A DNA stretch of 64,000 nucleotides, taken from assembly GCA_040902335.1 (NCBI GenBank), contig JBBDXL010000101.1, forward strand, positions 24,579 through 88,578, read 5' to 3'. Below, piece by piece: positions 2,527 through 19,618 of this stretch. Source of the DNA: Burkholderiales bacterium (lineage in GTDB: Bacteria; Pseudomonadota; Gammaproteobacteria; Burkholderiales; SG8-39). Made by a program: the position numbers and the translations under genes. Under the pieces are notes generated by a model. That model searched no databases. It was given only the letters and a program-made list of their open reading frames with translations, and was not told where the DNA came from. How positions within the stretch are numbered: the first letter of the stretch is position 1; each line of letters starts with the position of its first letter.

Positions 2527-3924
2527 TCAGATCACCTTGGAGTATTCGGCGCGCGCTTCGCGCTCGCGCAGGTAGCGGTCGAACACCGCGCACACCACGC
2601 GCACCAGCAGCCGTCCCTTGGGCGTGACGATGATCCAGTCCGGCTGCAGCTCGACCAGCCCGTCGGCTTCGAGCCCGCGCAGGTCCTTCATCTCCGCGGC
2701 GAAGTAGGCGTCGAAGTCGAGCAGGTGCGCGAGCTCCACCGACTCCTTGGCGACGCGGAAATGGCAGCTGAGCGCCTGGATCACGGCGCGGCGCACGAGA
2801 TCGTCCTGCGTCAGCTCCAAGCCGCGCGCCACCGGCAGGCGCCCCGCGTCGAGCGCGGCGTAGTGGTCGTCGAGGCGCTTCTGGTTCTGATAGTAGGTCG
2901 GGCCGATGGCGCCGATCGCCGAGACGCCCAGGCCGATCAGGTCGCTGCCGCGGCGCGTGGAATAGCCCTGGAAGTTGCGCTGCAGGCGACCCTGCGCCTG
3001 GGCGATCGCGAGCTCGTCGTCGGGCCGCGCGAAATGGTCCATGCCGATGTAAAGATAGCCGGCGCGCGTCAGGCGGCCGATGGCGAGCGAGAGGATCTGC
3101 AGCTTCATTTCCGCCGCCGGCAGGTCGGCCTCGGCGATCCGCCGCTGCGGCTTGAACACCTTGGGCAAGTGCGCGTAGCTGTAGAGCGCGATGCGGTCCG
3201 GGTCGAGCGCGACCACCTGGTCGAGCGTGCGGCTGAAGCCGTCCAGGGTCTGCTTGGGCAGGCCGTAGATGAGGTCCAGGTTCACCGAGCCGAAGCCCGC
3301 CGCGCGCGCTTCCCCCACCACGCGGCGCGTTTCCTCTTCGCTCTGGATGCGGTGCACCGCCTTCTGCACCTGGGCGTCGAAGTCCTGGACGCCGAGGGAA
3401 ACGCGGTTGAAGCCCAGCCCGGCGAGGAACGCCATCGTGCCGGGAGCGACGCGGCGCGGGTCCACCTCGATCGAGCATTCGCAGTCGGGCGCGCGCTCGA
3501 AGCGCCGGCAGATCGACTGCATCAGGCTCTGCATTTCCTCGCGCGCGAGGAAAGTGGGCGTGCCGCCGCCCCAATGCAGCTGGCCGATCGCGCGGTTGGC
3601 GCCGAGCGAGGGCTCCAGCGACGCCAGTTCCTTCTCCAAGTACTTGATATACTTGGCCGATCTCAAGCGGTCGCGCGTCACCACCTTGTTGCACGCGCAG
3701 TAGTAGCAGAGCGTGTCGCAAAATGGCAGGTGCACGTAGAGCGAGAGCGGCTGGCTGACGCCGCCGATATTGCGCTTGCCGAGCCACTGCCGCAGCTCGG
3801 CCTCGCCGAACGCCTCGACGAAGCGGTCCGCGGTTGGGTACGAGGTGTAGCGCGGCCCGCTTACGTCGTACTGGCGGATGAGGACCGGGTCGATGACGAG
3901 GTCGGAGGCGGGGTAGCGCTGCAT
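2527..3924 (-). CDS. hemN: oxygen-independent coproporphyrinogen III oxidase (radical SAM)
   Basis: ORF 2527..3969. GPRYTSYPTADRF, radical-SAM cluster motif CDTLCYYCACN, and full-length similarity to HemN. I prefer ATG 3924 (MQRYPASDLVIDPVLIRQYD) because the longer start at 3969 lies inside the FNR box. Confidence 0.95.
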   Translation of the reverse strand: MQRYPASDLVIDPVLIRQYDVSGPRYTSYPTADRFVEAFGEAELRQWLGKRNIGGVSQPLSLYVHLPFCDTLCYYCACNKVVTRDRLRSAKYIKYLEKELASLEPSLGANRAIGQLHWGGGTPTFLAREEMQSLMQSICRRFERAPDCECSIEVDPRRVAPGTMAFLAGLGFNRVSLGVQDFDAQVQKAVHRIQSEEETRRVVGEARAAGFGSVNLDLIYGLPKQTLDGFSRTLDQVVALDPDRIALYSYAHLPKVFKPQRRIAEADLPAAEMKLQILSLAIGRLTRAGYLYIGMDHFARPDDELAIAQAQGRLQRNFQGYSTRRGSDLIGLGVSAIGAIGPTYYQNQKRLDDHYAALDAGRLPVARGLELTQDDLVRRAVIQALSCHFRVAKESVELAHLLDFDAYFAAEMKDLRGLEADGLVELQPDWIIVTPKGRLLVRVVCAVFDRYLREREARAEYSKVI

Positions 3925-3959
3925 TGCCGCCCAATATGGGCTTGCGAGGGAATAACGGC

Positions 3960-3973
3960 TTGATTTCAATCAA
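3960..3973. promoter_or_regulatory. FNR-type box TTGATTTCAATCAA (perfect consensus)
   Basis: Palindrome in the hemN / kinase divergent gap. The centre at 3966.5 is 42.5 bp from the hemN ATG 3924. Confidence 0.8.
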
Positions 3974-3998
3974 ACCCGGGCTGTTTCGCCATCCCGCG

Positions 3999-5246
3999 GT
4001 GATCGCCGCCGGGGGGGCGGCGCTCGCCGCGCTGCTGATCATGAACGGCGCCGCGTTCATCCGCGGCATGGACTCCCCCTGGCTGCTGGGCGCAGTCATC
4101 CTCACCGACCTGGCGGTGGTCGGCGTGAGCCTGGTCGCGGCGCTCTGGTCGATCGCGGTCTGGGGCGGGCGCAAGGACGTGAGCGAAGCGCGCCTGGACG
4201 CCATCGTCGACTCGGCGATGGACGCCATCCTCACCGTGGACGCGGCGCAGAACGTCGTGCTGTTCAACCGCGCCGCCGAGCAGATGTTCGGCGTGCGCCG
4301 CGACGACGCCCTCGGCTCGCCGCTCGACCGCTTCATTCCGCAACGCTTCCGCGGCGCGCACCGCGCGCACGTCGAGAAGTTCGGCCACACCGGCGTCACC
4401 AGCCGGCGCATGGGCGACCAGACGACTCTGTGGGCGCTGCGCGCCGACGGCAGCGAGTTCCCCATCGAGGCCTCGATCTCGCAGGCGGGCGAGCCGGGCA
4501 GCCGCTTCTTCACCGTGATCCTGCGCGATATCACGCTCCGCAAGCAGAACGAGGACACGATGCTCCGGCAGCAGCAGGAGCTGCGCGAGCTTTCGGCGCG
4601 CGTGCTGGAGGCGCGCGAGGAGGAAAAGACGCGCATCGCGCGCGAGCTGCACGACGAGCTGGGGCAGCTGCTCACGGCGCTCAAGATGGACCTCGCCTGG
4701 CTGCGCGAGCGCCTGCCCGAGACCGGGCCCGAGCTCGCGGCGCGCGCCGACGGCATGAGCGCGCTCCTCGACCGCACCGTGAGCTCGAGCCGGCGCATCG
4801 CCGCGGACCTGCGGCCGCTGATGCTCGACGACCTCGGGCTCGCCGAGGCGGCGCAATGGCTGGTGGAGGATTTCGCCAAGCGCTCCGCGATCCGGGTCGA
4901 GATGCAGGCGCCCGAAGACCTCGCGCTGGAGGCACTGTCCAAGGGTGCCGCCACGGCGCTGTACCGCGCGCTGCAGGAATCGCTCACCAACATCGCCCGC
5001 CATTCCGGGGCGAAAAGCGCCTGGATCGTGCTGGCGCAGGACAACGGCACGCTGCACCTGGAGATCGAGGACGACGGGCGCGGCATCGCCGCCGAGGACC
5101 TCGCGAAGGCGAGCTCGCTCGGCCTGAAGGGCATGCGCGAGCGCATCGCCTACTACGGCGGCTCGCTGGAAGTGGCGCGCGCGCCGCGCGGCGGCACGCG
5201 GCTGCGCGTGCGCATGCCGCTCCCCTCCGGCGGTGCCGAGGCATGA
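3999..5246 (+). CDS. PAS-domain sensor histidine kinase (HisKA_3 / NarX-DegS type)
   Basis: ORF 3924..5246. One or two N-terminal TM segments, a PAS region (DAIVDSAMDAILTVDAAQNVVLFNRAAEQMFG), an H-box (ELHDELGQLLTAL) and HATPase motifs (DDGRGI, GLKGMRER). The start is uncertain: GTG 3999, ATG 4041 or ATG 4068. ATG 3924 would abut the hemN start. Confidence 0.88.
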   Translation: MIAAGGAALAALLIMNGAAFIRGMDSPWLLGAVILTDLAVVGVSLVAALWSIAVWGGRKDVSEARLDAIVDSAMDAILTVDAAQNVVLFNRAAEQMFGVRRDDALGSPLDRFIPQRFRGAHRAHVEKFGHTGVTSRRMGDQTTLWALRADGSEFPIEASISQAGEPGSRFFTVILRDITLRKQNEDTMLRQQQELRELSARVLEAREEEKTRIARELHDELGQLLTALKMDLAWLRERLPETGPELAARADGMSALLDRTVSSSRRIAADLRPLMLDDLGLAEAAQWLVEDFAKRSAIRVEMQAPEDLALEALSKGAATALYRALQESLTNIARHSGAKSAWIVLAQDNGTLHLEIEDDGRGIAAEDLAKASSLGLKGMRERIAYYGGSLEVARAPRGGTRLRVRMPLPSGGAEA

Positions 5247-5866
5247 TCCGCGTCCTGCTCGCCGACGACCACCAGATCGTGCGCGACGGCCTGCGCGGCA
5301 TTCTCGCCGCGCAGGCCGACGTCGAGGTCGCGGGCGAGGCGGCGGACGGCGACCAGGCGCTCGCGCTGGTGCGCGCCAACGACTACGACGTGGCCGTGCT
5401 CGACCTGTCGATGCCGGGCCTCTCGGGGCTCGACCTCGTCAAGCGCCTGAAGCTGGAAAAGCCGAAGCTCAGGCTGCTCGTGCTCTCGATGCACGGCGAG
5501 CAGCAGTACGCCGTGCGCGCGCTCAAGGCCGGGGCGTCGGGCTATCTCACCAAGGACAGCGCATCGGCGCAGCTGATCGGCGCGCTGCGCAAGATCGCGG
5601 CCGGAGGCGTGCACGTCTCGGAGGCCACCGCCCTCGGGCTGGTGAGCGCGGCGAGCGGCGACGGCCCGCCGCACGCGCGCCTCTCGGACCGCGAGTTCGA
5701 GGTGTTGAAGCTGCTCGCCGGCGGCGCGAGCCCTACGGACATCGCGCGCAGGCTGCACCTGTCGGTGAAGACCGTGAGCACGCACAAGACGCGCGTGCTG
5801 GACAAGCTCGGTCTGGGCGGCACCGCGGAGCTGGTGCGCTACGCCCTGGAGCACAAGCTGGTCTAG
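5243..5866 (+). CDS. NarL/FixJ-family response regulator (REC + LuxR-type HTH)
   Basis: MIRVLLADDHQIVRDGL...DLSMPGLSG...LSDREFEVLKLLAGGASPTDIARRLHLSVKTVSTHKTRVLDKLG. The ATG overlaps the kinase stop (ATGA). Confidence 0.95.
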   Translation: MIRVLLADDHQIVRDGLRGILAAQADVEVAGEAADGDQALALVRANDYDVAVLDLSMPGLSGLDLVKRLKLEKPKLRLLVLSMHGEQQYAVRALKAGASGYLTKDSASAQLIGALRKIAAGGVHVSEATALGLVSAASGDGPPHARLSDREFEVLKLLAGGASPTDIARRLHLSVKTVSTHKTRVLDKLGLGGTAELVRYALEHKLV

Positions 5867-5934
5867 GACTTTTCCGAGCCGCGAATCAGCCGCCGCCGAT
5901 GGCCGGCGCCGCGGCGCGCCGCCACACTGGCGGC

Positions 5935-6312
5935 ATGCAAACGCGCACCGTCTATCTCGTAGAGGACTCGCCCCTGGTGAGCGAGCGCCTGCTCGAGATG
6001 CTCGAGGACGTGCCCGGCGTGCGCGTGACGGGCCACACCACACGCGCCGACGACGCGATCCGCGACATCCTCGCCGGGCGTCCCGACGTCGTGGTGCTCG
6101 ACATCCGGCTCGCGCAGGGCAGCGGCTTCGATGTGCTGCGTGCGCTGCACGATCAGGCGCCCGAGATCGAGGTCTACATGCTCTCCAGCTTCGCCTCCGA
6201 TCCGTACCGGCACCTCGCCGCGCGGCTCGGGGCGCGCGGCTTCTTCGACAAGGCCACCGAATTCACCCGCGTGCGCGACGCCGTCGCCGCGCGCGCCGCG
6301 CTCACGCACTGA
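5935..6312 (+). CDS. single-domain response regulator (CheY-like receiver only)
   Basis: C-terminal 125 aa of ORF 5233..6312, from ATG 5935: MQTRTVYLVEDSPLVSERLLEML...DVVVLDIRLAQGSGFDVLRAL. Confidence 0.85.
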   Translation: MQTRTVYLVEDSPLVSERLLEMLEDVPGVRVTGHTTRADDAIRDILAGRPDVVVLDIRLAQGSGFDVLRALHDQAPEIEVYMLSSFASDPYRHLAARLGARGFFDKATEFTRVRDAVAARAALTH

Positions 6313-6329
6313 AGAAAAGAGAGGACGCC

Positions 6330-7070
6330 ATGCACGCTGTCACCGCCATTCACGCCGCGCCCGCATCGAAGAAGTTCGAAGTCACCTGCTCGAGCTGCAA
6401 CCTGCGCGAGATGTGCCTGCCCGCCGGGCTGTGCGCCGAGGACCTCGAGCGCATCGAGAACGTGGTCTACGCGCGCCGGCGCCTGAAGCGCGGCGAGCCG
6501 CTGTTCAATGCCGGGGACAGCTTCAGCGCGGTGTACGCCATCCGCAGCGGCTTCTTCAAGACCAGCCTGCTCGACCCCGACGGGCGCGAGCAAGTCACCG
6601 GCTTCTTCATGGGCGGGGAGCTGCTCGGCATGGACGGCATCGGCGGCGCGCACCACGGCACCGCCATCGCGCTCGAGGACAGCGAGGTGTGCGTGCTGCC
6701 CTACGCGCTGATCGAGGACCTGTCGCGCGAGATCCCGGCGCTGCAGCGCCAGCTGCACGCGGTGCTGGCGCGCGAGATCGCGCGCGACCACGGCGTGATG
6801 ATGCTGCTCGGCTCGATGCGCGCCGAGGAGCGCCTGGCGACGTTCCTGCTCAACCTGTCCAGGCGCTTCGTGCGCCGCGGCTACTCCTCGACCGAGTTCC
6901 ACCTGCGCATGACGCGCGACGAGATCGGCAGCTACCTCGGCCTGAAGCTGGAGACGGTGAGCCGGCTGTTCTCCGCGTTCCAGAAGGACGGCCTGATCGA
7001 GGTGCAGCAGAAGCACGTGCGCATCCGCGAAATCGAGGGCCTGGAGCGGGTGCTCGCGACGCGGCACTGA
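6330..7070 (+). CDS. fnr: FNR (Crp/Fnr family, [4Fe-4S] oxygen-sensing transcription factor)
   Basis: 246 aa. N-terminal CSSCNLREMC aligns with E. coli FNR C20/C23/C29 and DSEVCVLPY with C122. The recognition helix ETVSRLF matches E. coli ETISRLL. An AAGAGAGGA Shine-Dalgarno sequence lies upstream. Confidence 0.95.
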   Translation: MHAVTAIHAAPASKKFEVTCSSCNLREMCLPAGLCAEDLERIENVVYARRRLKRGEPLFNAGDSFSAVYAIRSGFFKTSLLDPDGREQVTGFFMGGELLGMDGIGGAHHGTAIALEDSEVCVLPYALIEDLSREIPALQRQLHAVLAREIARDHGVMMLLGSMRAEERLATFLLNLSRRFVRRGYSSTEFHLRMTRDEIGSYLGLKLETVSRLFSAFQKDGLIEVQQKHVRIREIEGLERVLATRH

Positions 7071-7129
7071 GGGGGCTTTCGATCGCCTAGCGACTTCGAA
7101 TTGCCCGCATACCCGAAGTAACATGGGGT

Positions 7130-8557
7130 ATGCGTAGCGCTGCGCACATCGCTCTGCTGCTCGCGCTGTATCTCGCGCTCGCCCTGCTGCCGCTCGCGCT
7201 CGCCGCGGCGCAGGGCCTGCCGCGCCGCCCATGGCTCGACGAGCTCTCCTCCGGGCTCGCCATGGCCGGATTCGCGGTGCTGCTGCTCGAGTTCGCGCTC
7301 TCGGGCCGCTACCGGCGGCTCTCGGCGCGCGTCGGCATGGACCTGACGATGCGCTTTCACCAGCTGATGGCGCTCGCCGCGCTCGCCTTCCTGCTGTTCC
7401 ACCCGTTCCTCTATGCGCCCGCCTTCAGCGAGCGTCCGGCGTACGGCGCGGGGACTGCGACGCGCGTCCTGCTCACGCCGGCGGCGACGGTGAGTGGCAT
7501 GCTCGCCTGGATGCTGCTGGTGATGCTGGTCGCCTTCGCCTGGTTCCGCACGCAGCTGCGCTGGTCCTACGAGGCCTGGCGGCTCTCGCACGGCCTCGGG
7601 GCGCTGGCGATCGCCTTCCTCGGCGCGCATCACACGCTCGACACCGGGCGCTACGCGCAGGACCCCTGGCTGCGCGGCGTCTGGCTCGCGGCCTGCGCGG
7701 CGGCGCTCGTCTCCCTCGCGCTGGTGTACCTGGTGAAGCCGCTCGCGCAGTCGCGCCGGCGCTGGCGCGTCGCCATCGTCGCGCCGGAGGCCGAGCGCAT
7801 CTGGCGCGTGGTGCTCGAGCCCGACACCGCGCGCGATTTCCGCTTCGCCGCCGGCCAGTTCGTCTGGCTCAAGCTGCACCGTGCGCTCGGCCGCATCACC
7901 GAGCACCCGTTCTCCATCGCCTCGGCGCCGGGGCAGCTGCCGCGCCTGCAGTTCCTGGTGAAGGAGGCGGGCGACTTCACCCGCTGCATCGGCCGCGTCG
8001 CACCCGGCGCCGCGGCCTATGTCGACGGCCCATACGGCGACCTCACGCTCGCCGGCCGCGGCGGCGCGGGCATCGTCCTCATCGCCGGCGGCGTCGGCAT
8101 CGCCCCGATCCTCGGCCTGGCGCGCGACCTCGCCGCGACGCACGACCCGCGGCCGCTCACAATCGTCTATGCCGATCGCACGGCGGCGCAGCTCGCGGCG
8201 CGCGCCGAGCTGGAGGTGATGGCGCGTGCGCCCGGGCGCGAGCTGCACCTGGTGCTCGATGAGCCGCCCGCGGACTGGAGCGGCCTGCGCGGCCGTCTCG
8301 ACACGGCGAATCTCAGAGCCTGCCTGCCGCGCAGCGGCGCCGCCGAGTGGCTGTATTTCGTCTGCGGGCCGCCCGCGATGATCGACGCGGTAGAAATGAG
8401 CCTGGCCGAGCTCGGCGTGCCCCTGGCGAGAATCGCTTCCGAGCGCTTCGTCTACGACAGCGGCATCGCCACGCCGCGCGAGCGGCTGACGCGCGCGGTG
8501 ATCGCCGGGGTAATCGCGGTGCAGGTACTCGCCGTGGTAGCTTTCGTGCTGCGATGA
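7130..8557 (+). CDS. NOX/ferric-reductase-family flavocytochrome (6-TM bis-heme domain + FAD/NAD(P)H dehydrogenase domain)
   Basis: 475 aa. His pairs with NOX-type spacing: FHQLMALAALAFLLFH has 13 residues between the His, and SHGLGALAIAFLGAH has 12. Also HPFSIAS (FAD), GPYG, GGVGIAP (NAD(P)H), CGPPAM, and an extra C-terminal TM helix. Confidence 0.85.
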   Translation: MRSAAHIALLLALYLALALLPLALAAAQGLPRRPWLDELSSGLAMAGFAVLLLEFALSGRYRRLSARVGMDLTMRFHQLMALAALAFLLFHPFLYAPAFSERPAYGAGTATRVLLTPAATVSGMLAWMLLVMLVAFAWFRTQLRWSYEAWRLSHGLGALAIAFLGAHHTLDTGRYAQDPWLRGVWLAACAAALVSLALVYLVKPLAQSRRRWRVAIVAPEAERIWRVVLEPDTARDFRFAAGQFVWLKLHRALGRITEHPFSIASAPGQLPRLQFLVKEAGDFTRCIGRVAPGAAAYVDGPYGDLTLAGRGGAGIVLIAGGVGIAPILGLARDLAATHDPRPLTIVYADRTAAQLAARAELEVMARAPGRELHLVLDEPPADWSGLRGRLDTANLRACLPRSGAAEWLYFVCGPPAMIDAVEMSLAELGVPLARIASERFVYDSGIATPRERLTRAVIAGVIAVQVLAVVAFVLR

Positions 8558-9408
8558 GCCTGCGCTCCCTGCTCGCCGCCACCGATTTTTCCGAGCACGC
8601 GCAGCTCGCGGCGCTGCGCGCGGCGCTGCTCGCGCGCGAGCTCGGCGCACGCCGGTGCGTGCTGCTGCACGTGGCGCTGGAGCGCGCGCTGCGCCCGGCC
8701 GACCGGGCGCGCGTGACGCGCCGGCTGCGGCGGGAGCTGGCGCAGCAGGCGCGCGCGCTGCAGGCGCAGACCGGCGCCGCGGTCGTGCCGCGCCTCGCGT
8801 GCGGGCCGGTGGTGGAGACCCTGGCACGCGCCGCGCGACACTTCGACCTGGTGGTGGTCGGCGCGCAGGGCGCGCATCCGCTGCGCGACTTCGCCATCGG
8901 CACGAGCGCCGAGCGGCTGCTGCGCCGGATCCATCGCCCGGTGCTGGTGGTAAAGCGCCGCCCCGCGGGCGCTTACCGCCGGGTGGTGGTGCCGGTCGAT
9001 TTCTCCGGCGCCTCGAAGGCCTCGCTCGCGCTGGCGCATGCCGTCGCGCCGGGCGCCGAGCTGAGCGTGCTGCACGCGTTCGAGGTGCCCTACGAGGGCA
9101 AGCTGCGCGTCGCGGGCGTGGCCGAGGACGACGTGCTGCGCTACCGCAGGCTCGCCCGCGAGCGGGCACGTGCGGACATGGACACGTTGCTCGGCGGCGC
9201 CGGCTCGGGCGTCGTGCGCCTGATCGCGCACGGCTATCCGCCGAAGCTGATCGCCCGCACCCAGGCCGAGATCGGCGCCGACCTGGTCGCGATCGGCAAG
9301 CACGGCCGGTCGGCGCTCGAGGACCTGCTGATCGGCAGCGTCACGCTGCATACCCTGTCGGCGGTGGATTGCGACGTGCTGGTGACGCCGCGATCTCCGC
9401 GGCGATGA
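8554..9408 (+). CDS. universal stress protein, tandem UspA domains
   Basis: From ATG 8554, which overlaps the upstream stop (ATGA). MSLRSLLAATDFSEHA...VVVGAQG...GTSAERLLRRIHRPVLVV..., and a second domain ending IGKHGRSALEDLLIGSVTLHTLSAVDCDVLV. Confidence 0.85.
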   Translation: MSLRSLLAATDFSEHAQLAALRAALLARELGARRCVLLHVALERALRPADRARVTRRLRRELAQQARALQAQTGAAVVPRLACGPVVETLARAARHFDLVVVGAQGAHPLRDFAIGTSAERLLRRIHRPVLVVKRRPAGAYRRVVVPVDFSGASKASLALAHAVAPGAELSVLHAFEVPYEGKLRVAGVAEDDVLRYRRLARERARADMDTLLGGAGSGVVRLIAHGYPPKLIARTQAEIGADLVAIGKHGRSALEDLLIGSVTLHTLSAVDCDVLVTPRSPRR

Positions 9409-11020
9409 CGCGCGCCGCATGATCGGCGGCGTCGTCGAAGGGGTTCAGGACGCGCGCGGCGCCGGCGCGCTCGAGCGCGGCGCCGTGGGCCGGGTCGCGC
9501 GCCACCGCCGCCACCTGGCCCCGGAAGCCGGCTTCGCGCAGCGCGTGCAGCAGCGCGCGGTGCGATTCCCATTGCGGCAGCGTGCTGACGGCCCAGGCCG
9601 ATTCCGCCAGGGGGAGTGACTCCAGGAACGCCGGGTCCTCGGCGTCGCCGAAGCGCACCGCAAAGCCCCGGCGGCGCAGCGCGCGCACCGTCTCCGGATC
9701 GAAGTCGACGCCGAGCGTGTTGACGCCGGCCGCGCGCAGCTGCGCGAGCAGGCGCGCGCCGTAGCGGCCGAGCCCGAAGATCACGACGTCGGGCGCCTCC
9801 TCCGGCCGGCGCTGGCGCTCGACCGCGAGCTCGCGGAACGGCCGGCGCCGCTCGAACACGCGCAGCCAGGGCGCGAGCCGCTCGTACAGGCCGTGCGAGT
9901 ACAGGATCATGTAGGTGGAGAGCGCGATCGTGATCACGCCCACCAGCGTGGTGAGGCCGAGCGCCTGCGGGCCGACGTGGCCGAGCGAGATGCCCATGGC
10001 CACGAACACGATGGAAAACTCGCTGATCTGCGCGACCGTGAGGCCGGCGAGGAAGCCGGTGCGACGGCGGTAGCCCATGTAGCCCATGATGACCATGACG
10101 ATAAGCGGATTGCCGACCAGCACGAACAGCGACAGGACCGCCGCCAGCCCGAGCTCGCCGCCGAGGACCGACAAGTCCAGATTGGCGCCGAGGTCGATGA
10201 AGAAGAACAGCAGCAGGAAGTCGCGGATGCCGGTGAGCCGCGCGGCGATCGCTTCGCGATAGCCCGTCGAGGCGAGCGAGAAGCCGGCGAGGAAGGCGCC
10301 CGCCTCCTTGCTGAAGCCGGCCCACTCGCCGAGCGCCGCGAGGCCCGTGCCCCACGCGATCGCGAACACCAGCAGCAGCTCCTGCGAGCCGGCCATGGCC
10401 TCGGTGACGCGCGGCACGACGTAGCGCACCAGCACGAACATGAGCGCGGCGGCCGCGCCGACCCGCGCCACGAGCGACAGCGCCACCTCGAGCGCCGCGG
10501 CCTCTCCGGCCCCGCGCAGCGCGCTCATCGCCACCATCGCCAGCACCACGGCGATGTCCTGCACGATCAGGAAGCCCACCGCGATGCGCCCGTGCAGGGT
10601 GTCGAGCTCGCGCTTGTCCGAGAGCAGCTTGACGATGATGATGGTGCTCGAGAACGTGAGCGCCACCGCCACGTAGAGCGCCTCCATCGGCGACTTGCCC
10701 ATCAGCAGGATGAGCGCGAAGCCGAACAGGATCGTGAAGCCGAGCTGCCCGAGCCCCGTGGCGAGCGCGACCGGGCCGATGTGGCGCACGCTGTGCAGGT
10801 CGAGCTTCAGGCCGACGACGAACAGCAGCACCGCGACGCCCACCTGGGCGAGCAGCGCGATCTGGTCCTCGGAGCGGACGAAGCCGAAGACGGCGGGCCC
10901 GGCGAGGATGCCGACGACGATGTAGGCGATGAGCACCGGCTGGCGCAGGCGCACCGCCAGCACGCCGGCGAGCGCCGACAGGATCAGCAGGAGCGCGAAT
11001 TCCTCGAACGAGCCGTGCAT
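9341..11020 (-). CDS. CPA2 cation:proton antiporter with C-terminal TrkA-N/RCK domain (Kef-like)
   Basis: 559 aa. About 12 TM segments (MHGSFEEFALLLILSALAGVLAVRLRQPVLIAYIVVGILAGP), then a Rossmann segment DVVIFGLGRYGARLL. Confidence 0.9.
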   Translation of the reverse strand: MHGSFEEFALLLILSALAGVLAVRLRQPVLIAYIVVGILAGPAVFGFVRSEDQIALLAQVGVAVLLFVVGLKLDLHSVRHIGPVALATGLGQLGFTILFGFALILLMGKSPMEALYVAVALTFSSTIIIVKLLSDKRELDTLHGRIAVGFLIVQDIAVVLAMVAMSALRGAGEAAALEVALSLVARVGAAAALMFVLVRYVVPRVTEAMAGSQELLLVFAIAWGTGLAALGEWAGFSKEAGAFLAGFSLASTGYREAIAARLTGIRDFLLLFFFIDLGANLDLSVLGGELGLAAVLSLFVLVGNPLIVMVIMGYMGYRRRTGFLAGLTVAQISEFSIVFVAMGISLGHVGPQALGLTTLVGVITIALSTYMILYSHGLYERLAPWLRVFERRRPFRELAVERQRRPEEAPDVVIFGLGRYGARLLAQLRAAGVNTLGVDFDPETVRALRRRGFAVRFGDAEDPAFLESLPLAESAWAVSTLPQWESHRALLHALREAGFRGQVAAVARDPAHGAALERAGAARVLNPFDDAADHAARVIAAEIAASPARRNPPPTGYAA

Positions 11021-11023
11021 GAG

Positions 11024-11917
11024 CTAGGCGACGAGCAGTACGGGCACGGGGCTCGCCGCCGCCGCCTTCAGCGCCACCGAGCCGAAGAGCGCGTGGTGCG
11101 CGGCGCCGCGCCCGCGCGTGCCGAGGGCGAGGAGCTCGCACTGCGTGTCGCGCGCCAGGCGCGCGAGCTCGGCCGCCGGGTCGCCCGCGACCAGGTGCGC
11201 CTCGTGCTTTACGCCGGCGCGGGACAGCAGGTCGCGCGCCGCCTCGAGGGCCTGCGCGCCCGAGTCGCCGCGCCACTGCGCGAGCGCGTCCTCGTGCGGC
11301 GGCATCATCTTTTCCAGCAGCGTGAGCGGCGGCTGCACATGCGCGAGCTGGATCTCGAGCTCGCCCAGCCAGCCGCGCCAGGAAAGCAGACGCTCCAGCG
11401 CGCGCAGCGCGGGCGGCGAGCCGTCCATGGCGCACAGGATGCGCAGGCGCTCGCCCAGCGCGCGCGGCAGCGCGGCCTCGGGCCCGACGATCAGCGTGGG
11501 CGCGACCCCGCCGTGCGCGACGCGCATGGCCGCCGAGCCGAGCGCGAAGCCGTGCAGCGCGCCGTGCCCGCGCGTGCCCATGACGATCGCCTGCGCGCCC
11601 GAAGCGCGCGCATCGTCGAGCAGCGCCGGGGCCGGCAGGCCGAAGCGCACCTCGCCGCGCGCCGCGATCCCCGCCTGCGCCAGGCGCTCGAGCGCGGGCG
11701 CGAGCGCGCCGCGCCCCGCCTCGGCGAGCGCCGCGTCGAGGGCCGCGGGATCGATGCCCATGCCCGGGAACAGCGTCACCGGCCGCTGCTGCACGTTGAC
11801 CGCGAGCACCTCGAGCCGCCCGCGCTCCCCACGATAGCCCGCCAGCAGCTGCGCGGCGCGCTGCGCCGCCGGCGAGCCGTCGAAGGCGAGCACCAGCCTG
11901 ACCGGACTTTCGCTCAT
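11024..11917 (-). CDS. universal stress protein, tandem UspA domains
   Basis: From ATG 11917 (MSESPVRLVLAFDGSPAAQRA...IVMGTRGHGALHGFALGSAAMRV...LALGTRGRGAAHHALFGSVALK). The ATG overlaps the ATPase stop (ATGA). Confidence 0.85.
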   Translation of the reverse strand: MSESPVRLVLAFDGSPAAQRAAQLLAGYRGERGRLEVLAVNVQQRPVTLFPGMGIDPAALDAALAEAGRGALAPALERLAQAGIAARGEVRFGLPAPALLDDARASGAQAIVMGTRGHGALHGFALGSAAMRVAHGGVAPTLIVGPEAALPRALGERLRILCAMDGSPPALRALERLLSWRGWLGELEIQLAHVQPPLTLLEKMMPPHEDALAQWRGDSGAQALEAARDLLSRAGVKHEAHLVAGDPAAELARLARDTQCELLALGTRGRGAAHHALFGSVALKAAAASPVPVLLVA

Positions 11918-14613
11918 ATGTCCTCCTGCACGACCTGCAGGTCCGCCACCCCCAGGCGGCGCAGCAGCCACTTCTCACCCTCCAGCAGCAGCAGCATGAC
12001 CACGCCGATGCCCACGATCATCGCGCCATCGGCGAGCGACACCGGCCGCGTGGCGAACCACAGTTGCATGAACGGCGCATAGGTGAAGGCAAGCTGCGCG
12101 ACGATCACCGCGGCGAGTGCGATCAGCACCGCCGGCGTGCCGAGCGCGCCGCGCGGCGTGATCGAGGCCTGGTGCAGGTAGCGCACGTTGAACAGGTAGA
12201 AGATTTCCATCACCACGAGCATGTTCACCACCAGGGTGCGCGCCGTCTCCAGGTCGTTGCCCCGCGCGAGCGAATGGAAGAACATCGCCAGCGCGGCGCC
12301 GAGGAACAGGAACGATACCAGCGCCACGCGCCAAAGGAGGAACGGCGACAGCAGCGGCGCCTGCGGCGGGCGCGGCGGGCGGCGCATCACGCCGGGCTCC
12401 GCGGGCTCGAACGCGAGCACCAGCCCGAGCGTCACCGAGGTGACGAGGTTGATCCACAGGATCTGCACCGCGCTCACCGGCAGCACGAAGCCGAAGGCGA
12501 TCGCCGCGATCACGGTGAGCGCCTCGCCGCCGTTGGTGGGCAGCGTCCAGGCGATCACCTTGCGGATGTTGTCGTAGACCGTGCGCCCTTCGTGCACCGC
12601 GTTGACGATGGAGGCGAAATTGTCGTCGGCGAGCACCATCTCCGCGGCTTCCTTGGCGGCTTCCGTGCCCTTGATGCCCATCGCCACGCCGACATCGGCC
12701 TGCTTGAGCGAGGGGGCGTCGTTCACGCCGTCGCCGGTCATCGCCACCACCGCGCCACCCGCCTGCAGCGCGCGCACGATGCGCAGCTTGTGCTCGGGGC
12801 TGGTGCGCGCGAACACCGTGGAGCGCCCCACGGCTTCGGCGAACTCGACCTCGTCCATCGCGTCCAGCTCCGCGCCGGTCACCGCCTGCGGATCGTCCGC
12901 CAGCCGGAGCTGCCGGGCGATGGTCGCGGCCGTCGCCGCGTGGTCGCCGGTGATCATCTTCGCCTCGATGCCCGCCGCGCGGCACTCGGCAACCGCAGCG
13001 ATCGCCTCCTCGCGCGGCGGATCGATGAAGCCGGCGATGCCGAGGAACTCGAGCTCGCTGGCGACGTCCGCCTTGCGCAAGCGCTGCTGCGCGCCCGGCA
13101 GCCGCTTGCACGCGAAGCCGAGCACGCGCTCGCCCGCCGAAGCGGCCTCGGCGATGCGCTTCGCCCAGGCCTCGCGCTCCTCGTCGCCCAGACCCGCCAT
13201 GGCGAGCAACGGCTCGGGCGCGCCCTTCACGTACGCCACCGCGTCGCCGTCGGGCCCGCGGTGCAGCGTGGCCATGTAGCGGTGCGCCGCGTCGAACGGA
13301 ATCTCGTCCAGGCGCGGCCACTCGGCGCGCGCGTGCTCCGGGTTGAGGCCGGTCTTCATGGCGAGCGCCACCAGCGCGCCCTCCATCGGGTCGCCTTCCA
13401 CCGTCCAGGCGCCGTCGCGCTGGCGCAGCTGCGCGTCGTTGCACAGCAGGCCGCAGCGCACCAGCGGCGCGGCCGCCGCGATCGCGGCGGCGTCGTCGTC
13501 GTGGCCGACGGCCTCGAGATCGCCCTCGGGCGCATAACCCGAGCCGCTCACCGCCACGTGGTGCCCGCCGGCGATCACGCGCGTCGCCGTCATCTCGTTC
13601 CGGGTCAGCGTGCCGGTCTTGTCCGAGCAGATCACCGAGGTGGCGCCGAGCGTCTCCACCGCGGGCAGGCGCCGGATGATGGCGTTTCGCGCCGCCATGC
13701 GCTGCACGCCGATGGCGAGCGTGATGGTGATGACCGCGGGCAGCCCTTCGGGCACCGCGCCTACGGCGAGCGCCACCACCGCCATCAGCGCCTCCGGCCA
13801 GCCGTAGCCGCGCACCCCGACGGCGAAGGCGAACACCACTGCCGAGACGGCGAGCGCGACCCACGTGAAGATCAGGCCGAAACGATTGATCTGGCGCAGC
13901 AGCGGCGTGGTGAGCTGCTCCACGCTCTGCAGGAGCGAGCTGATGCGGCCGATCTCGGTGCGCATGCCGGTGGCCACCACCACGCCGCTCGCCTGGCCCG
14001 CGGCGACCAGCGTCCCCGAGTAGGCCATGCCGCGCCGATCGCCGAGCGGCGCATCGGCCGCCACCGGCTCCTCCAGTTTTTCCGCGGCCACCGATTCGCC
14101 CGTGAGCAGCGCCTCGTCGATGAGCAATCCCCGCGCGCGCACCAACCGCAGGTCCGCGGGCACGCGGTCGCCCGCCTCCAGCAGCACGAGATCGCCCGGG
14201 ACCAGCTCCGCCACGGCCACCGACTGGCGGGCACCGTCGCGCCGCACGCTCGCCCTGGGCGAGATCATCCTACGCATCGCCTCGAGCGCGGCTTCCGCCT
14301 TGCCCTCCTGCACGAAGCCGATGACGGCGTTGACCACGACCACGGCGGCGATCACCGCGGCGTCGATGAAATGGGCGAGGATCGCCGCCGCCGCCGCGGC
14401 GACGAGCAGGAAGTAGATGAGCGCGTTGTTGAACTGCGCGAGGAAACGCAGGATCGGGTGCCGGCGCGGCGCTTCCGGCAGCGCGTTCGGGCCGTGCCTC
14501 TTCAGGCGCTCGGCGGCTTCCCCGGCCGACAGGCCCTGCGGGCCGCTGGCGAGGGCGCGCAGCGCCTCCTGCGCGGGAATCGCGTGCCAGTCCTGTCGGG
14601 TAAAGTCGCTCAA
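11914..14613 (-). CDS. P2-type cation-translocating P-type ATPase (SERCA/PMCA-like)
   Basis: CSDKTGTLT phosphorylation motif, TGES, PEGLPAVITITLAIG, TGDGVNDAPSLKQADVGVAMG. The ORF track extends it to 15333, but that part overlaps mgtE. I place the start at TTG 14613, which overlaps the mgtE stop (TTGA) and gives MSDFTRQDWHAIPAQEAL. Confidence 0.93.
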   Translation of the reverse strand: MSDFTRQDWHAIPAQEALRALASGPQGLSAGEAAERLKRHGPNALPEAPRRHPILRFLAQFNNALIYFLLVAAAAAAILAHFIDAAVIAAVVVVNAVIGFVQEGKAEAALEAMRRMISPRASVRRDGARQSVAVAELVPGDLVLLEAGDRVPADLRLVRARGLLIDEALLTGESVAAEKLEEPVAADAPLGDRRGMAYSGTLVAAGQASGVVVATGMRTEIGRISSLLQSVEQLTTPLLRQINRFGLIFTWVALAVSAVVFAFAVGVRGYGWPEALMAVVALAVGAVPEGLPAVITITLAIGVQRMAARNAIIRRLPAVETLGATSVICSDKTGTLTRNEMTATRVIAGGHHVAVSGSGYAPEGDLEAVGHDDDAAAIAAAAPLVRCGLLCNDAQLRQRDGAWTVEGDPMEGALVALAMKTGLNPEHARAEWPRLDEIPFDAAHRYMATLHRGPDGDAVAYVKGAPEPLLAMAGLGDEEREAWAKRIAEAASAGERVLGFACKRLPGAQQRLRKADVASELEFLGIAGFIDPPREEAIAAVAECRAAGIEAKMITGDHAATAATIARQLRLADDPQAVTGAELDAMDEVEFAEAVGRSTVFARTSPEHKLRIVRALQAGGAVVAMTGDGVNDAPSLKQADVGVAMGIKGTEAAKEAAEMVLADDNFASIVNAVHEGRTVYDNIRKVIAWTLPTNGGEALTVIAAIAFGFVLPVSAVQILWINLVTSVTLGLVLAFEPAEPGVMRRPPRPPQAPLLSPFLLWRVALVSFLFLGAALAMFFHSLARGNDLETARTLVVNMLVVMEIFYLFNVRYLHQASITPRGALGTPAVLIALAAVIVAQLAFTYAPFMQLWFATRPVSLADGAMIVGIGVVMLLLLEGEKWLLRRLGVADLQVVQEDI

Positions 14614-16953: not shown

Positions 16954-17000
16954 GGCGGTCAACCTCAGGGGCTATGGTGCGTTGCACGCCTGCGCCGGAC

Positions 17001-17014
17001 TTGACCTGGATCAA
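17001..17014. promoter_or_regulatory. FNR-type box TTGACCTGGATCAA
   Basis: Perfect TTGAY-N4-RTCAA. The centre at 17007.5 is 54.5 bp upstream of the E2 ATG 16953, which allows a leader carrying a Shine-Dalgarno sequence. Confidence 0.7.
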
Positions 17015-17099
17015 CTGCGGGGCAAGCCCCGGGTGGGACGCGACGTCGTTTCTGGTGCTCTACAATTCGAACCGCAACGCGACAAAGAACCAGACGCAG

Positions 17100-18689: not shown

Positions 18690-19618
18690 GCTGGCCCAAG
18701 CACGCGCGCAAGTGGAGCCCCGCGGAGATCCTCAAGGATGTGGCGAAGGCGAGGAACCAATTCAGAGTTCGCAGAGTTGGAGAACCGCGGGAGAGGTACG
18801 TGCACGCGTTCCGCGTCATCGAGCGGGCGAATCGCACGATAACACCGCAGCTTTCACGGCTCTTTGACGACCCCCTTGACGTGGACCTGTTGATCTCAAT
18901 CGTGAAGGACAAGGAACTTCTGTCGGCGTTTCGGTACCTCGCGGCACCGCCGGTTTCCCAGGACGACCTCGAGACGCTGTCGGGCGCCCGGCTCGCCTGG
19001 ACTCAGTTGAAAGCCAGTCCCGCGAAGGCGGCGGCAGTCAGAAACGTTGTCGCCTCGATTCTGGACACGAAGCGGTTCGGGTGGTTGCGCGAGCGGCGAG
19101 CTCCGAGGAAACACGAGACGGAGGCCGCAATTCTCGCTTCGACTGTCGTTGCGTCTGCGCAGAGGGTTCAAACGGAGAGGCGCTCGGAGGAACGAAAGGA
19201 ACTCCAGGATGCGGTAATACAGGTTCTGGAGAGGATGAAGTATCGGCGGGCCGACAAGCCGCGCAAGGGGGTTCAGAACCTTCGCCGCGATGCGCCGAAG
19301 CCTGGCGAGTACATGACTGAAGTGTTGATCCATGAACACAACGCGGACGTCGCGGTCGGCATGAAAGATTTCCGGATCCTCGCGGTCGAGTGCAAAGGAT
19401 CGAACAGCGAGATCAACAGCCGCAAGAGAATCAACAAGGAGGTCGCGCGCGACGCGTCGAGCTGGATCGAGCGATTTGGCGATGAGATCGTGCCGGCTGC
19501 GGTCGTCCAGGGCGTCTTCAATGCGACGTATATCGAGCAAGCCCAGGAGACCCCCGTGGTGTTCATCTGGGCACACCGGCTCGAGGACCTCGAGCGATTC
19601 CTGAACGCGAGTCGATAG
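18686..19618 (+). CDS. putative type II restriction endonuclease (PD-(D/E)xK-like; XamI-like from memory only)
   Basis: 310 aa. The GTG start overlaps the methylase stop (GTGA). Candidate catalytic stretch: HNADVAVGMKDFRILAVECKGSNSE (D...E-x-K). Same low-GC patch as the methylase. Confidence 0.6.
   Translation: MSWPKHARKWSPAEILKDVAKARNQFRVRRVGEPRERYVHAFRVIERANRTITPQLSRLFDDPLDVDLLISIVKDKELLSAFRYLAAPPVSQDDLETLSGARLAWTQLKASPAKAAAVRNVVASILDTKRFGWLRERRAPRKHETEAAILASTVVASAQRVQTERRSEERKELQDAVIQVLERMKYRRADKPRKGVQNLRRDAPKPGEYMTEVLIHEHNADVAVGMKDFRILAVECKGSNSEINSRKRINKEVARDASSWIERFGDEIVPAAVVQGVFNATYIEQAQETPVVFIWAHRLEDLERFLNASR

What the first reader, a model, noticed from the sequence alone, without database searches (positions are those of the whole stretch)
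7130..8557. NADPH-oxidase-family flavocytochrome immediately downstream of fnr and coupled to a USP
The 475-aa product has six TM helices with the two His pairs spaced exactly as in eukaryotic NOX/FRE heme-binding helices. There are 13 residues between the His in helix 3 (FHQLMALAALAFLLFH) and 12 in helix 5 (HGLGALAIAFLGAH).

It also has HPFSIAS, GPYG, GGVGIAP and CGPPAM dehydrogenase motifs, and one extra C-terminal TM helix.

It follows fnr in the same orientation, and its stop overlaps the start of a tandem USP (ATGA).

A superoxide- or ferric-reducing transmembrane electron exporter inside an oxygen-limitation island is counter-intuitive. Its acceptor is unknown; O2 scavenging, Fe3+ reduction to feed the nearby Fe3+-type ABC importer, or periplasmic repair are all conceivable.
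Basis: partly seen in the sequence, partly recalled or inferred. Interest (0 to 1): 0.6.

Follow-up and report, generated by a model that had tools for sequence, protein, structure and literature searches.

The report
SpNOX-like membrane flavocytochrome in hypoxia operon
This gene encodes a bacterial relative of NADPH oxidases and ferric reductases that should carry electrons from NAD(P)H out across the inner membrane; it belongs to a large, already recognised family, but it sits in an oxygen-limitation operon and carries a fused copy of a tiny, unannotated membrane subunit that most relatives encode separately.

Summary
ORF 7130-8557 (+) encodes a 475-aa protein with six TM helices, His77-x13-His91 and His154-x12-His167, the HPFSI, GPYG, GGVGIAP and CGPP motifs, and a seventh C-terminal helix. 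It follows fnr by 59 nt and overlaps a tandem USP (ATGA).

It belongs to the known bacterial "long-form" ferric-reductase-domain family. The best structural match is S. pneumoniae SpNOX (TM-score 0.79). The family holds 554 clusters at 50% identity.

It is not a eukaryote-type NOX: the O2-site histidine is an invariant Tyr, and the NOX-type NADPH-domain model scores below cutoff. It is not MsrQ-type either, because all four heme histidines are present. The periplasmic electron acceptor is unresolved.

The fnr linkage is real but limited to one clade: hemN / kinase / two regulators / fnr / this gene is syntenic in five close betaproteobacterial genomes. USP coupling is only partly conserved. 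The "Fe3+ importer" lies 40 kb away and is not clearly an iron system.

The new result is the "extra helix". It is a conserved module ending in F-A-L-R, fused in 15 of 69 loci and encoded as a separate ~28-aa mini-ORF in about 42. No curated family describes it.

Verdict: an ordinary family member with moderately interesting context.

The parts
3960..3973 (.). Perfect FNR-type palindrome TTGATTTCAATCAA in the divergent hemN / kinase promoter region; the likely control site for the six-gene run that contains the target
   Evidence: 0 mismatches; 11 sites in the window against 0.2 expected; centred about 40 nt upstream of both the hemN start and the estimated kinase start.
2527..3924 (-). hemN, oxygen-independent coproporphyrinogen III oxidase, divergent from the operon
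   Evidence: NCBIfam TIGR00538, 586 bits against a cutoff of 325. Syntenic in all close orthologs.
4005..5246 (+). PAS + HisKA_3 sensor kinase (DosS/DevS-like architecture). The start is approximate; the ORF is open from 3924.
   Evidence: Pfam PAS, HisKA_3, HATPase_c. The ortholog is called as 413 aa.
5243..5866 (+). Response regulator with GerE/LuxR output domain; its start overlaps the kinase stop
   Evidence: Pfam Response_reg + GerE
5908..6312 (+). Single-domain (CheY-like) response regulator
   Evidence: Pfam Response_reg
6330..7070 (+). fnr (Crp/Fnr family regulator), 17 nt after the preceding gene
   Evidence: NCBIfam Fnr NF008365, 234 bits against a cutoff of 228. Pfam cNMP_binding + HTH_Crp_2.
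7107..7133 (+). Hairpin in the 59-nt fnr-to-target spacer whose 3' arm contains the ATG start codon; possible translational control, weak evidence
   Evidence: MFE -32.9 kcal/mol for 7068-7150, z = -2.4. No terminator or sigma70 promoter is called. Hairpins covering the start codon are also seen in L001 and L007, with different sequences.
7130..8557 (+). Target gene: 475-aa SpNOX-like FRD flavocytochrome with fused tail helix
7130..7759 (+). Six-helix ferric-reductase (di-heme cytochrome b) domain, residues 1-210. Heme ligands: His77 (7358-7360), His91 (7400-7402), His154 (7589-7591), His167 (7628-7630). Invariant His168, Tyr95 and Arg33 lie on the periplasmic side.
   Evidence: Pfam PF01794, 48 bits; invariant columns; model helices
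7760..8458 (+). Cytoplasmic FNR-type FAD/NAD(P)H dehydrogenase domain, residues 211-443. Motifs: HPFSI 259, GPYG 300, GGVGIAP 320, CGPP 412. Invariant Phe440 aligns with the FAD-gating Phe397 of SpNOX.
8474..8554 (+). Fused tail module, residues 449-475: a basic N-side (PRERLTR), a TM helix and the C-terminal motif F-V-L-R. Homologous to separately encoded mini-proteins of about 28 aa in relatives.
   Evidence: (helix 449-474, pLDDT about 90)
8554..9408 (+). Tandem-domain universal stress protein; its start codon overlaps the target's stop (ATGA)
   Evidence: Pfam Usp, two stretches, 133 bits; junction sequence; the same abutting junction in L007

Best explanation
The gene encodes an inner-membrane flavocytochrome b of the bacterial long-form ferric-reductase-domain family, with the same fold and cofactor layout as S. 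pneumoniae SpNOX.

Electron path (inferred from motifs and fold):
- A cytoplasmic FNR-type domain takes a hydride from NAD(P)H onto FAD.
- Single electrons then pass through an inner b-heme (His77/His154) and an outer b-heme (His91/His167 or His168).
- They reach a one-electron acceptor in the periplasm.

Regulation (inferred from sequence and synteny): the gene is the fifth in a tightly spaced same-strand run of PAS kinase, two response regulators, fnr, this gene and a tandem USP. The run is headed by a perfect FNR palindrome shared with divergent hemN. The gene is therefore most likely made when oxygen is limiting.

Tail (shown by comparison): the seventh helix is a fused copy of a single-TM subunit of about 28 aa that most relatives encode as a separate mini-ORF. 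Its basic end is cytoplasmic, and its invariant Phe and C-terminal Arg lie at the periplasmic face.

Acceptor (not determined): my working view is that the enzyme acts as an oxygen-limitation NAD(P)H-reoxidising electron exporter. It would pass electrons to whatever periplasmic oxidant is available, such as Fe(III)/Cu(II) chelates, a c-type cytochrome or trace O2, as the promiscuous SpNOX does. I do not think it is a dedicated superoxide generator.
For: Architecture and fold:
- Pfam finds Ferric_reduct, FAD_binding_8 and NAD_binding_1 above cutoffs.
- AlphaFold2 model: pLDDT 82, pTM 0.82.
- The top PDB match is SpNOX 8qt6: E = 1.8e-17, TM-score 0.79 normalised to the target, 412 aligned columns.
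- The profile alignment to SpNOX runs from TM4 to the C-terminal Phe.

Cofactor residues: four heme His, the HPFS motif, the GxGxxP motif, CGP and Phe440 are invariant in homologs down to 48% identity.

Family: 554 clusters at 50% identity with E <= 1e-30. Sources name them ferric reductase or ferredoxin reductase family proteins.

Operon:
- Gaps of 60 nt or less, or overlaps, from the kinase to the USP.
- No terminator is called.
- An FNR palindrome lies at 3960.
- hemN / HK / RR / RR / fnr / FRD is syntenic in five distinct genomes at 71-84% identity.

Island: 11 FNR boxes against 0.2 expected. The gene content resembles the B. cenocepacia lxa locus and the DosR regulon.

Tail module:
- Fused in 15 loci, split in about 42, absent in about 10 of 69.
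- The split forms have their own ATG plus a GGAG/GAGG sequence.
- Phe at position -3 is invariant in 50 of 50.
- The tail is present in relatives at 35-40% identity.

Acceptor promiscuity in the closest characterised enzyme: SpNOX reduces cytochrome c, SOD, O2 and Fe(III), and lacks a canonical O2 site (PMC11564096).
Against: - There is no biochemical or expression data for this protein or any close ortholog. All close relatives come from uncultured MAGs.
- No FNR box lies in the 59-nt spacer. Co-transcription with fnr is inferred only from spacing and synteny.
- Across the wider family only 4 of 49 loci have an FNR-type box within 300 nt upstream. The low-oxygen link is therefore specific to this clade and says little about the family's core function.
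- No conserved neighbour identifies an acceptor.
The placement of the tail helix against the heme domain is supported only by its high pLDDT.
- The N-terminal helix also looks like a Sec signal peptide (AAA-QG). Invariant Tyr14 and Pro21 and the SpNOX fold argue that it is retained as TM1.
Confidence: 0.7

Rival explanations
1. It is a genuine NADPH oxidase. O2 is the physiological acceptor and superoxide or H2O2 the product, serving for example to scavenge residual O2 and protect O2-labile Fnr and HemN, or to signal.
For: - It passes all Hajjar et al. bacterial-NOX sequence filters.
- SpNOX, the closest structure, consumes O2.
- An invariant Arg33 lies at the periplasmic start of TM2, where NOX2 Arg54 and csNOX5 Arg256 lie (position only).
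- An [ST]-Gly dipeptide with invariant Gly123 lies at the periplasmic start of TM4 and may correspond to NOX2 Thr178-Gly179.
Against: - The position of the O2-site His119 is an invariant Tyr95.
- NAD_binding_6 scores below cutoff.
- The dehydrogenase domain is closer to generic FNR-family reductases than to NOX.
- The gene is placed for expression when O2 is scarce.
- The SpNOX authors themselves cannot exclude that O2 is not the physiological acceptor.
Confidence: 0.2
2. It is a dedicated assimilatory ferric (or cupric) reductase that makes periplasmic Fe(II) for uptake when demand for Fe-S and heme enzymes rises under oxygen limitation.
For: - It belongs to the FRD superfamily, and sources name it a ferric reductase.
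- The short-form four-His relative FrcB of Bradyrhizobium is a di-heme ferric reductase (cited in PMC9218516).
- From my own knowledge: E. coli feoABC is Fnr-activated, so Fnr-linked ferrous-iron supply has a precedent.
- The neighbours HemN and Fnr are Fe-S proteins.
Against: - No TonB receptor, Feo, siderophore or other iron-uptake gene is among the recurrent neighbours in 69 loci.
Confidence: 0.25
3. It is an MsrQ-like electron feeder for a specific periplasmic partner protein, such as a redox-repair enzyme or a c-type cytochrome, with the Fre-like reductase fused on.
For: - MsrQ is the only prokaryotic FRD protein with a known function, and it works this way.
- SpNOX has an exposed outer heme and reduces cytochrome c and SOD directly.
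- A small cytochrome c gene lies within 1-5 kb in 8 loci of one alphaproteobacterial group.
Against: - No periplasmic partner gene is conserved next to the gene. No MsrP-like gene was found among the window genes that I annotated.
- The YedZ/MsrQ signature (Arg replacing the first TM3 His) is not met.
- The cytochrome c linkage is confined to one taxon and the gene is not adjacent.
Confidence: 0.12
4. The adjacency to fnr and the USP is only island-level clustering without functional coupling. The gene would be a housekeeping membrane reductase with its own regulation.
For: - No FNR box in the spacer.
- The spacers fold into stable hairpins that could insulate transcription or translation.
- The USP position varies among orthologs.
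- Only 4 of 49 family members have an upstream FNR box.
Against: - The order fnr then gene is kept in five distinct genomes at 71-84% identity, while downstream genes vary.
- Gaps are 39-77 nt in three of them, and no terminator is called.
- The stop/start overlap with the USP recurs in a 71%-identical ortholog.
Confidence: 0.25

Closest known systems
SpNOX (Streptococcus pneumoniae NADPH oxidase; PDB 8qt6, 8qq7)
   Same: - Six-TM di-heme FRD domain fused to an FNR-type FAD/NAD(P)H domain.
- Identical His spacings (x13, x12).
- C-terminal gating Phe: Phe440 here, Phe397 in SpNOX.
- No NOX-type O2-site His.
- Best structural match, TM-score 0.79.
   Different: - Only 21% identity. By sequence the TM domain is not detectably similar to any PDB chain.
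- SpNOX is 400 aa and ends 3 residues after the Phe, with no tail helix or mini-subunit.
- SpNOX comes from a Gram-positive host. No hypoxia-operon context has been reported for it.
Eukaryotic NOX2/NOX5/DUOX and cyanobacterial csNOX5
   Same: Same three-domain logic and heme-ligand spacing. Full-length structural matches to NOX5 and DUOX1.
   Different: - The His119 equivalent is Tyr.
- NAD_binding_6 scores below cutoff.
- The dehydrogenase domain scores about 43 bits against NOX5 and DUOX, and about 100 bits against cytochrome b5 reductase.
- No EF-hands, no long extracellular loops.
- Zhang et al. consider the bacterial long forms a probably independent fusion.
E. coli MsrQ (YedZ) plus Fre
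   Same: FRD heme domain receiving electrons from an FNR-type flavin reductase and delivering them to the periplasm.
   Different: - MsrQ is a short form, with Arg replacing the first TM3 His, and Fre is a separate protein.
- MsrQ has a dedicated partner, MsrP, encoded next to it.
- Here all four His are present, the reductase is fused, and there is no MsrP.
Bradyrhizobium japonicum FrcB (di-heme ferric reductase)
   Same: A proteobacterial FRD protein with both His pairs; a precedent for periplasmic Fe(III) reduction.
   Different: FrcB is a short form without a dehydrogenase domain. It is Irr/iron-regulated and linked to iron uptake genes. No such linkage is seen here.
Small single-TM accessory subunits of membrane redox enzymes (p22phox for NOX1-4; CydX for cytochrome bd). 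This is an analogy from my own knowledge.
   Same: A short membrane partner encoded next to, or fused with, the catalytic heme subunit. The mini-ORF is about 28 aa, like CydX.
   Different: No sequence relationship is known or was tested. p22phox has several helices. The role of the tail module is untested.
B. cenocepacia lxa locus and the M. tuberculosis DosR regulon (context only)
   Same: A low-oxygen island with many USPs, an Anr/Fnr-like regulator, a two-component system, a cation P-type ATPase and FNR-type boxes.
   Different: The term searches of Sass et al. 2013 found no mention of a ferric reductase, oxidoreductase or flavo-protein in the lxa locus.

Membership tests
Bacterial long-form FRD / 'bacterial NOX' (criteria of Hajjar et al. 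2017) | FAD motif H[PSA]F[TS][LIMV] | tested here: met
   HPFSI at residues 259-263; criteria
Bacterial long-form FRD / 'bacterial NOX' (criteria of Hajjar et al. 2017) | [quoted passage not shown] | tested here: met
   GVGIAP at residues 321-326
Bacterial long-form FRD / 'bacterial NOX' (criteria of Hajjar et al. 2017) | Two His-x12/14-His motifs at least 20 residues apart, in TM helices 3 and 5; 3 to 7 TM helices in all | tested here: met
   His77-x13-His91 in helix 70-94. His154-x12-His167 in helix 147-172. Seven helices in total. The four His are invariant.
Bacterial long-form FRD / 'bacterial NOX' (criteria of Hajjar et al. 2017) | SpNOX-like fold of the heme domain plus the dehydrogenase domain | tested here: met
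   Foldseek 8qt6: E = 1.8e-17, TM-score 0.79 (target-normalised), 412 columns
Bacterial long-form FRD / 'bacterial NOX' (criteria of Hajjar et al. 2017) | Binds two b-hemes and FAD; NAD(P)H-driven reduction of an external acceptor | not testable with these tools
   Requires expression, spectra and assays
ROS-generating NOX sensu stricto (signature of Zhang et al. 2013) | Extra His four residues after the second TM3 heme ligand (NOX2 His119) | tested here: not met
   Position +4 after His91 is Tyr95, invariant in 20 homologs. Equivalence is by position relative to the ligand only.
ROS-generating NOX sensu stricto (signature of Zhang et al. 2013) | Thr178-Gly179 dipeptide in TM4 | tested here: inconclusive
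   Ser122-Gly123 (Thr-Gly in most homologs, Gly invariant) lies at the periplasmic start of TM4. No reliable residue alignment to NOX2 could be obtained.
ROS-generating NOX sensu stricto (signature of Zhang et al. 2013) | NOX/FRE-type NADPH-binding domain (Pfam NAD_binding_6) | tested here: not met
   20.4 bits against a cutoff of 22.2. NAD_binding_1 scores 64.7 bits instead.
MsrQ/YedZ-STEAP group | First TM3 heme His replaced by Arg; two or three His only; no fused dehydrogenase; msrP adjacent | tested here: not met
   His77 is present and invariant, four His in all, the dehydrogenase domain is fused, and no MsrP-like gene was found among the annotated window genes
Fnr regulon member | FNR box at a promoter that drives the gene; oxygen-dependent expression | tested here: inconclusive
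   A perfect box lies at 3960-3973 at the head of the same-strand run. There is none in the 59-nt spacer and no terminator is called. Expression is not testable here.

The most novel reading that the evidence does not exclude
The conserved ~28-aa single-TM element (fused here, a separate mini-ORF in most relatives) is an obligate small subunit that completes the periplasmic acceptor side of these bacterial NOX-like enzymes.

In this betaproteobacterial clade the holoenzyme would be an Fnr-controlled "redox valve". It would export electrons from NAD(P)H during oxygen limitation. The co-located cation pumps (P-type ATPase, CPA2 or Mrp antiporters) would compensate for charge and pH, as Hv1 does for NOX2.

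That would give the first physiological role, and the first accessory subunit, for the proteobacterial branch of the family.
Probability: 0.2. Interest if true: 0.65.

Novelty: new member of a known kind. Interest (0 to 1): 0.4.

Why it matters
Bacterial NOX/FRE-like flavocytochromes are abundant: this branch alone has 554 clusters at 50% identity. Yet MsrQ is still the only prokaryotic FRD protein with a known physiological role. The acceptor of the model enzyme SpNOX is also unsettled.

This locus contributes two testable leads:
- One clade is hard-wired behind fnr inside a hypoxia island, which suggests the condition under which to look for a function.
- The family carries a conserved micro-subunit, fused or split, with an invariant Phe and a C-terminal Arg. 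Standard annotation misses it, and it would be absent from constructs built from the annotated main ORF alone.

If the subunit is needed for heme loading or acceptor binding, this would matter for anyone expressing these enzymes as NOX models.

Tried and rejected
- Paralog: a second ORF of exactly 475 aa (59070-60497, minus strand) is an unrelated FGGY sugar kinase.
- TM-domain alignment: a TM-only profile found nothing in the PDB at E <= 10. The O2-site residues could therefore only be judged by position.
- Family-wide Fnr regulation: only 4 of 49 loci have a box within 300 nt upstream. I rejected this; the link is specific to the clade.
- Cytochrome bd linkage: seen in Pelagibius, but in only 2 loci overall.
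- Iron-uptake linkage: nothing recurrent in 69 loci. The window's ABC system is 40 kb away and PhnS/PhnT-like, below cutoff.
- Stop-codon readthrough for the in-frame mini-ORFs: rejected. They have their own ATG and a GGAG/GAGG sequence, all three stop codons occur, and 14 of 42 are in other frames.
- Rfam scan of 3800-9600: nothing near gathering score.
- Conserved RNA structure in the fnr-to-gene spacer: the sequences are not alignable and z-scores range from +1.3 to -2.4.
- Exact look-up of the window protein: not on record, so the source organism stays unidentified. The nearest relatives are uncultured Burkholderiales MAGs.
- Literature: I found no paper linking bacterial NOX homologs to Fnr or hypoxia. 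Term searches of the SpNOX preprint returned no description of a small subunit; it only remarks on extra C-terminal residues.
Full report
**1. The observation**

ORF 7130-8557 (+) exists and encodes 475 aa. Its GC3 is 0.92 in a 70.7% GC window, which marks it as the coding frame.

- His77-x13-His91 and His154-x12-His167.
- HPFS (259), GPYG (300), GGVGIAP (320) and CGPP (412).
- A C-terminal hydrophobic stretch at 452-475.

The His spacings are exactly those of NOX2 (101/115 and 209/222) and SpNOX (69/83 and 129/142). All four His are invariant in 20 homologs down to 48% identity, as are Arg33, Tyr95, His168 and Phe440.

Upstream, fnr (6330-7070) scores above the NCBIfam Fnr cutoff. Downstream, the tandem USP starts at 8554 inside the ATGA overlap.

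**2. What the protein is**

Pfam finds Ferric_reduct (44-164), FAD_binding_8 and NAD_binding_1, all above cutoff. The NOX-type NAD_binding_6 model scores below cutoff.

An AlphaFold2 model built from a 20-sequence alignment has pLDDT 82 and pTM 0.82. It shows six TM helices, an FNR-type two-lobe domain and a confident seventh helix at 449-474.

Foldseek places SpNOX (8qt6) first: E = 1.8e-17, TM-score 0.79 normalised to SpNOX, 412 columns, 21% identity. NOX5 and DUOX1 are weaker full-length matches.

By sequence:
- The dehydrogenase domain is closest to cytochrome b5 reductase and MmoC (about 100 bits).
- SpNOX scores 83 bits, aligned from TM4 to the C-terminal Phe.
- NOX5 and DUOX score about 43 bits.
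- The TM domain alone matches nothing in the PDB by sequence.

The protein meets every filter that Hajjar et al. used to define bacterial NOX candidates. It lacks the His119 signature that Zhang et al. associate with ROS-generating NOX; that position is an invariant Tyr95. It is not YedZ/MsrQ-type.

The family is large: more than 1000 hits named "predicted ferric reductase" or "ferredoxin reductase family protein", and 554 clusters at 50% identity with E <= 1e-30. The gene is therefore a new member of a known kind: the bacterial long-form FRD flavocytochromes, for which SpNOX is the model.

**3. Context**

The window is an oxygen-limitation island:
- It has 11 FNR-type palindromes against 0.2 expected. 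Seven lie within 130 nt upstream of ORF starts.
- It carries hemN, a hemerythrin-domain protein, four USP-domain proteins in all, a PAS/HisKA_3 kinase with a GerE regulator (DosS/DosR-like), a P2-type cation ATPase and a CPA2 antiporter.
- This resembles the B. cenocepacia lxa locus and the DosR regulon.

The target is the fifth gene in a same-strand run with gaps of 60 nt or less:
- kinase (about 4005-5246)
- response regulator (5243-5866)
- response regulator (5908-6312)
- fnr (6330-7070)
- target (7130-8557)
- USP (8554-9408)

A perfect TTGATTTCAATCAA at 3960-3973 precedes the run and is shared with divergent hemN. No terminator or sigma70 promoter is called inside the run.

The block hemN / kinase / regulators / fnr / target is syntenic in five distinct uncultured Burkholderiales or Betaproteobacteria genomes at 71-84% identity. 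What follows the target varies:
- USP, with the same abutting junction, in L007 (by BLAST). ORF clustering also places a USP directly downstream in L003, but BLAST with the window's USP did not confirm it.
- A convergent P-type ATPase in L006.
- A convergent Mrp antiporter in L001.
- In L002 a USP lies between fnr and the target.

At 45-54% identity there is no fnr linkage, and only 4 of 49 loci have an FNR-type box upstream. The most recurrent neighbour there is the P-type ATPase: 13 loci, 7 of them adjacent. In L008 and L009 it lies directly downstream on the same strand. No iron-uptake gene or periplasmic partner gene recurs. Linkage to cydAB is seen in only 2 loci.

**4. The extra helix**

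In relatives whose main ORF ends three residues after the gating Phe (SE[RK]F.YD-stop, as in SpNOX), a mini-ORF of 27-38 codons (median 28) begins 3-21 nt later or overlaps the stop.
- It has its own ATG and a GGAG/GAGG sequence that overlaps or follows the main stop codon.
- It encodes a basic N-terminus, one TM helix (Trp at -16 in 30 of 50) and a C-terminal F-A-L-R, with the Phe invariant in 50 of 50.

Among 69 loci the module is fused in 15, split in about 42, absent in about 10 and unclear in 2. The absent cases are mostly a Bradyrhizobium/Pseudolabrys-type group ending in SERFKYD.

Split forms lie in frame 0, +1 and +2 in 28, 9 and 5 loci (P = 1e-5 against an even split). This fits repeated interconversion by gain or loss of a stop codon, not readthrough.

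Fused tails ending in FALR or similar occur in relatives at 35-40% identity.

How annotation treats the mini-ORF:
- It is not annotated in the NCBI genome of Pelagibius litoralis.
- It has no Pfam or NCBIfam family.
- In the 15-billion-protein collection it appears only as an unnamed call, for 4 of the 10 peptides queried, all of 29 aa or more.
- The SpNOX crystallography preprint notes only a "high frequency of additional residues" at prokaryotic NOX C-termini.

Topology is self-consistent. The basic end follows the cytoplasmic dehydrogenase domain, so the F-x-L-R carboxy terminus sits at the periplasmic face, at about the depth of the outer heme. That last point is my inference, because I could not read the model coordinates.

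**5. Mechanism**

Inferred from motifs and fold: NAD(P)H, then FAD, then the inner heme (His77/His154), then the outer heme (His91/His167 or His168), then a periplasmic acceptor.

Inferred from synteny and the FNR box: expression under oxygen limitation.

Inferred from the promiscuity of SpNOX and the absence of any conserved partner: the acceptor is probably not a single dedicated protein.

I favour a role in NAD(P)H reoxidation and electron export under hypoxia. The rivals are Fe(III)/Cu(II) reduction for uptake, O2 scavenging, and a dedicated partner protein.

Electron export is depolarising and releases cytoplasmic protons (my own knowledge from NOX2/Hv1). The recurrent cation pumps and antiporters next to the gene could compensate for this. 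That idea is speculative.

**6. Verdict**

The "NADPH oxidase / superoxide" function and the Fe3+-importer link are not supported. The gene is an ordinary member of a large, annotated but physiologically unexplained family.

Two points are worth recording:
- The clade-specific wiring behind fnr.
- The fused or split micro-subunit, which I did not find described anywhere.

Interest is moderate (0.4).

Noticed in passing
window 8474-8554; L010-L081 immediately downstream of the homolog (e.g. L069 about 7330-7413, L017 about 7342-7434): The target's C-terminal helix corresponds to a separately encoded mini-protein of 27-38 aa (basic N-terminus, Trp, ...F-A-L-R-COOH) in about 42 of 69 related loci. 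It is fused in 15. It is unannotated or unnamed in databases and has no Pfam or NCBIfam family.
   Followed up: yes
window 3960, 17001, 23442, 34248, 34849, 41245, 49094, 50984, 51012, 52984, 53288: There are 11 FNR-type palindromes (up to 1 mismatch) against 0.2 expected. Seven sit within 130 nt upstream of ORF starts: hemN/kinase, an E2 acyltransferase, PolX, a 93-aa ORF, an SBP gene, archease-RtcB and a TPP enzyme. This suggests a large Fnr regulon with unusual members, including DNA polymerase X and the RtcB RNA ligase.
   Followed up: partly
window 9341-14610 (-); L001, L006-L009, L018, L028, L035, L068, L078: A P2-type cation ATPase (best NCBIfam match a Ca-type IIA, below cutoff) recurs near the flavocytochrome gene in 13 of 69 loci and is adjacent in 7. 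CPA2 or Mrp antiporters are also nearby in the window, L001 and L008. This could be charge/pH compensation for electron export, or simply dormancy-regulon clustering.
   Followed up: partly
window 7107-7133; L001 about 9990-10010; L007 about 5990-6025: The fnr-to-target spacers are not alignable, yet in three of four orthologs a hairpin includes the target's start codon (z = -2.4 and -2.2 in two of them). This could be translational control, but the evidence is weak.
   Followed up: partly
window 7631-7633 (His168), 7412-7414 (Tyr95), 7226-7228 (Arg33): These family-specific invariant residues flank the outer-heme ligands on the periplasmic side. They are candidate acceptor-site residues. His168 makes the identity of the TM5 outer ligand ambiguous (His167 or His168).
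   Followed up: partly
window 16974-19618 (+): An Eco57I-like methyltransferase and a XamI-like restriction endonuclease (a type II R-M pair) are inserted between Fnr-box-associated operons of the island.
   Followed up: no
window 51005-52865 (-): An RtcB RNA ligase and archease operon has FNR-type boxes on both sides (52984 upstream; 50984 and 51012 downstream, before an SBP/ABC operon).
   Followed up: no
L082 1888-4434 (Pelagibius litoralis); L080: In two relatives the flavocytochrome gene lies next to cytochrome bd oxidase genes (cydAB plus a DUF2474 small protein), another microaerobic function. This is too rare (2 loci) to generalise.
   Followed up: yes
window 59070-60497 (-): A second ORF of exactly 475 aa turned out to be an unrelated FGGY carbohydrate kinase next to gpsA; the equal length is a coincidence.
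   Followed up: yes
window 7130-7215: The first helix (MRSAAHIALLLALYLALALLPLALAAA-QG) also resembles a Sec signal peptide with an AxA site. Invariant Tyr14 and Pro21, high pLDDT and the SpNOX fold argue that it is retained as TM1, but cleavage was not excluded.
   Followed up: partly
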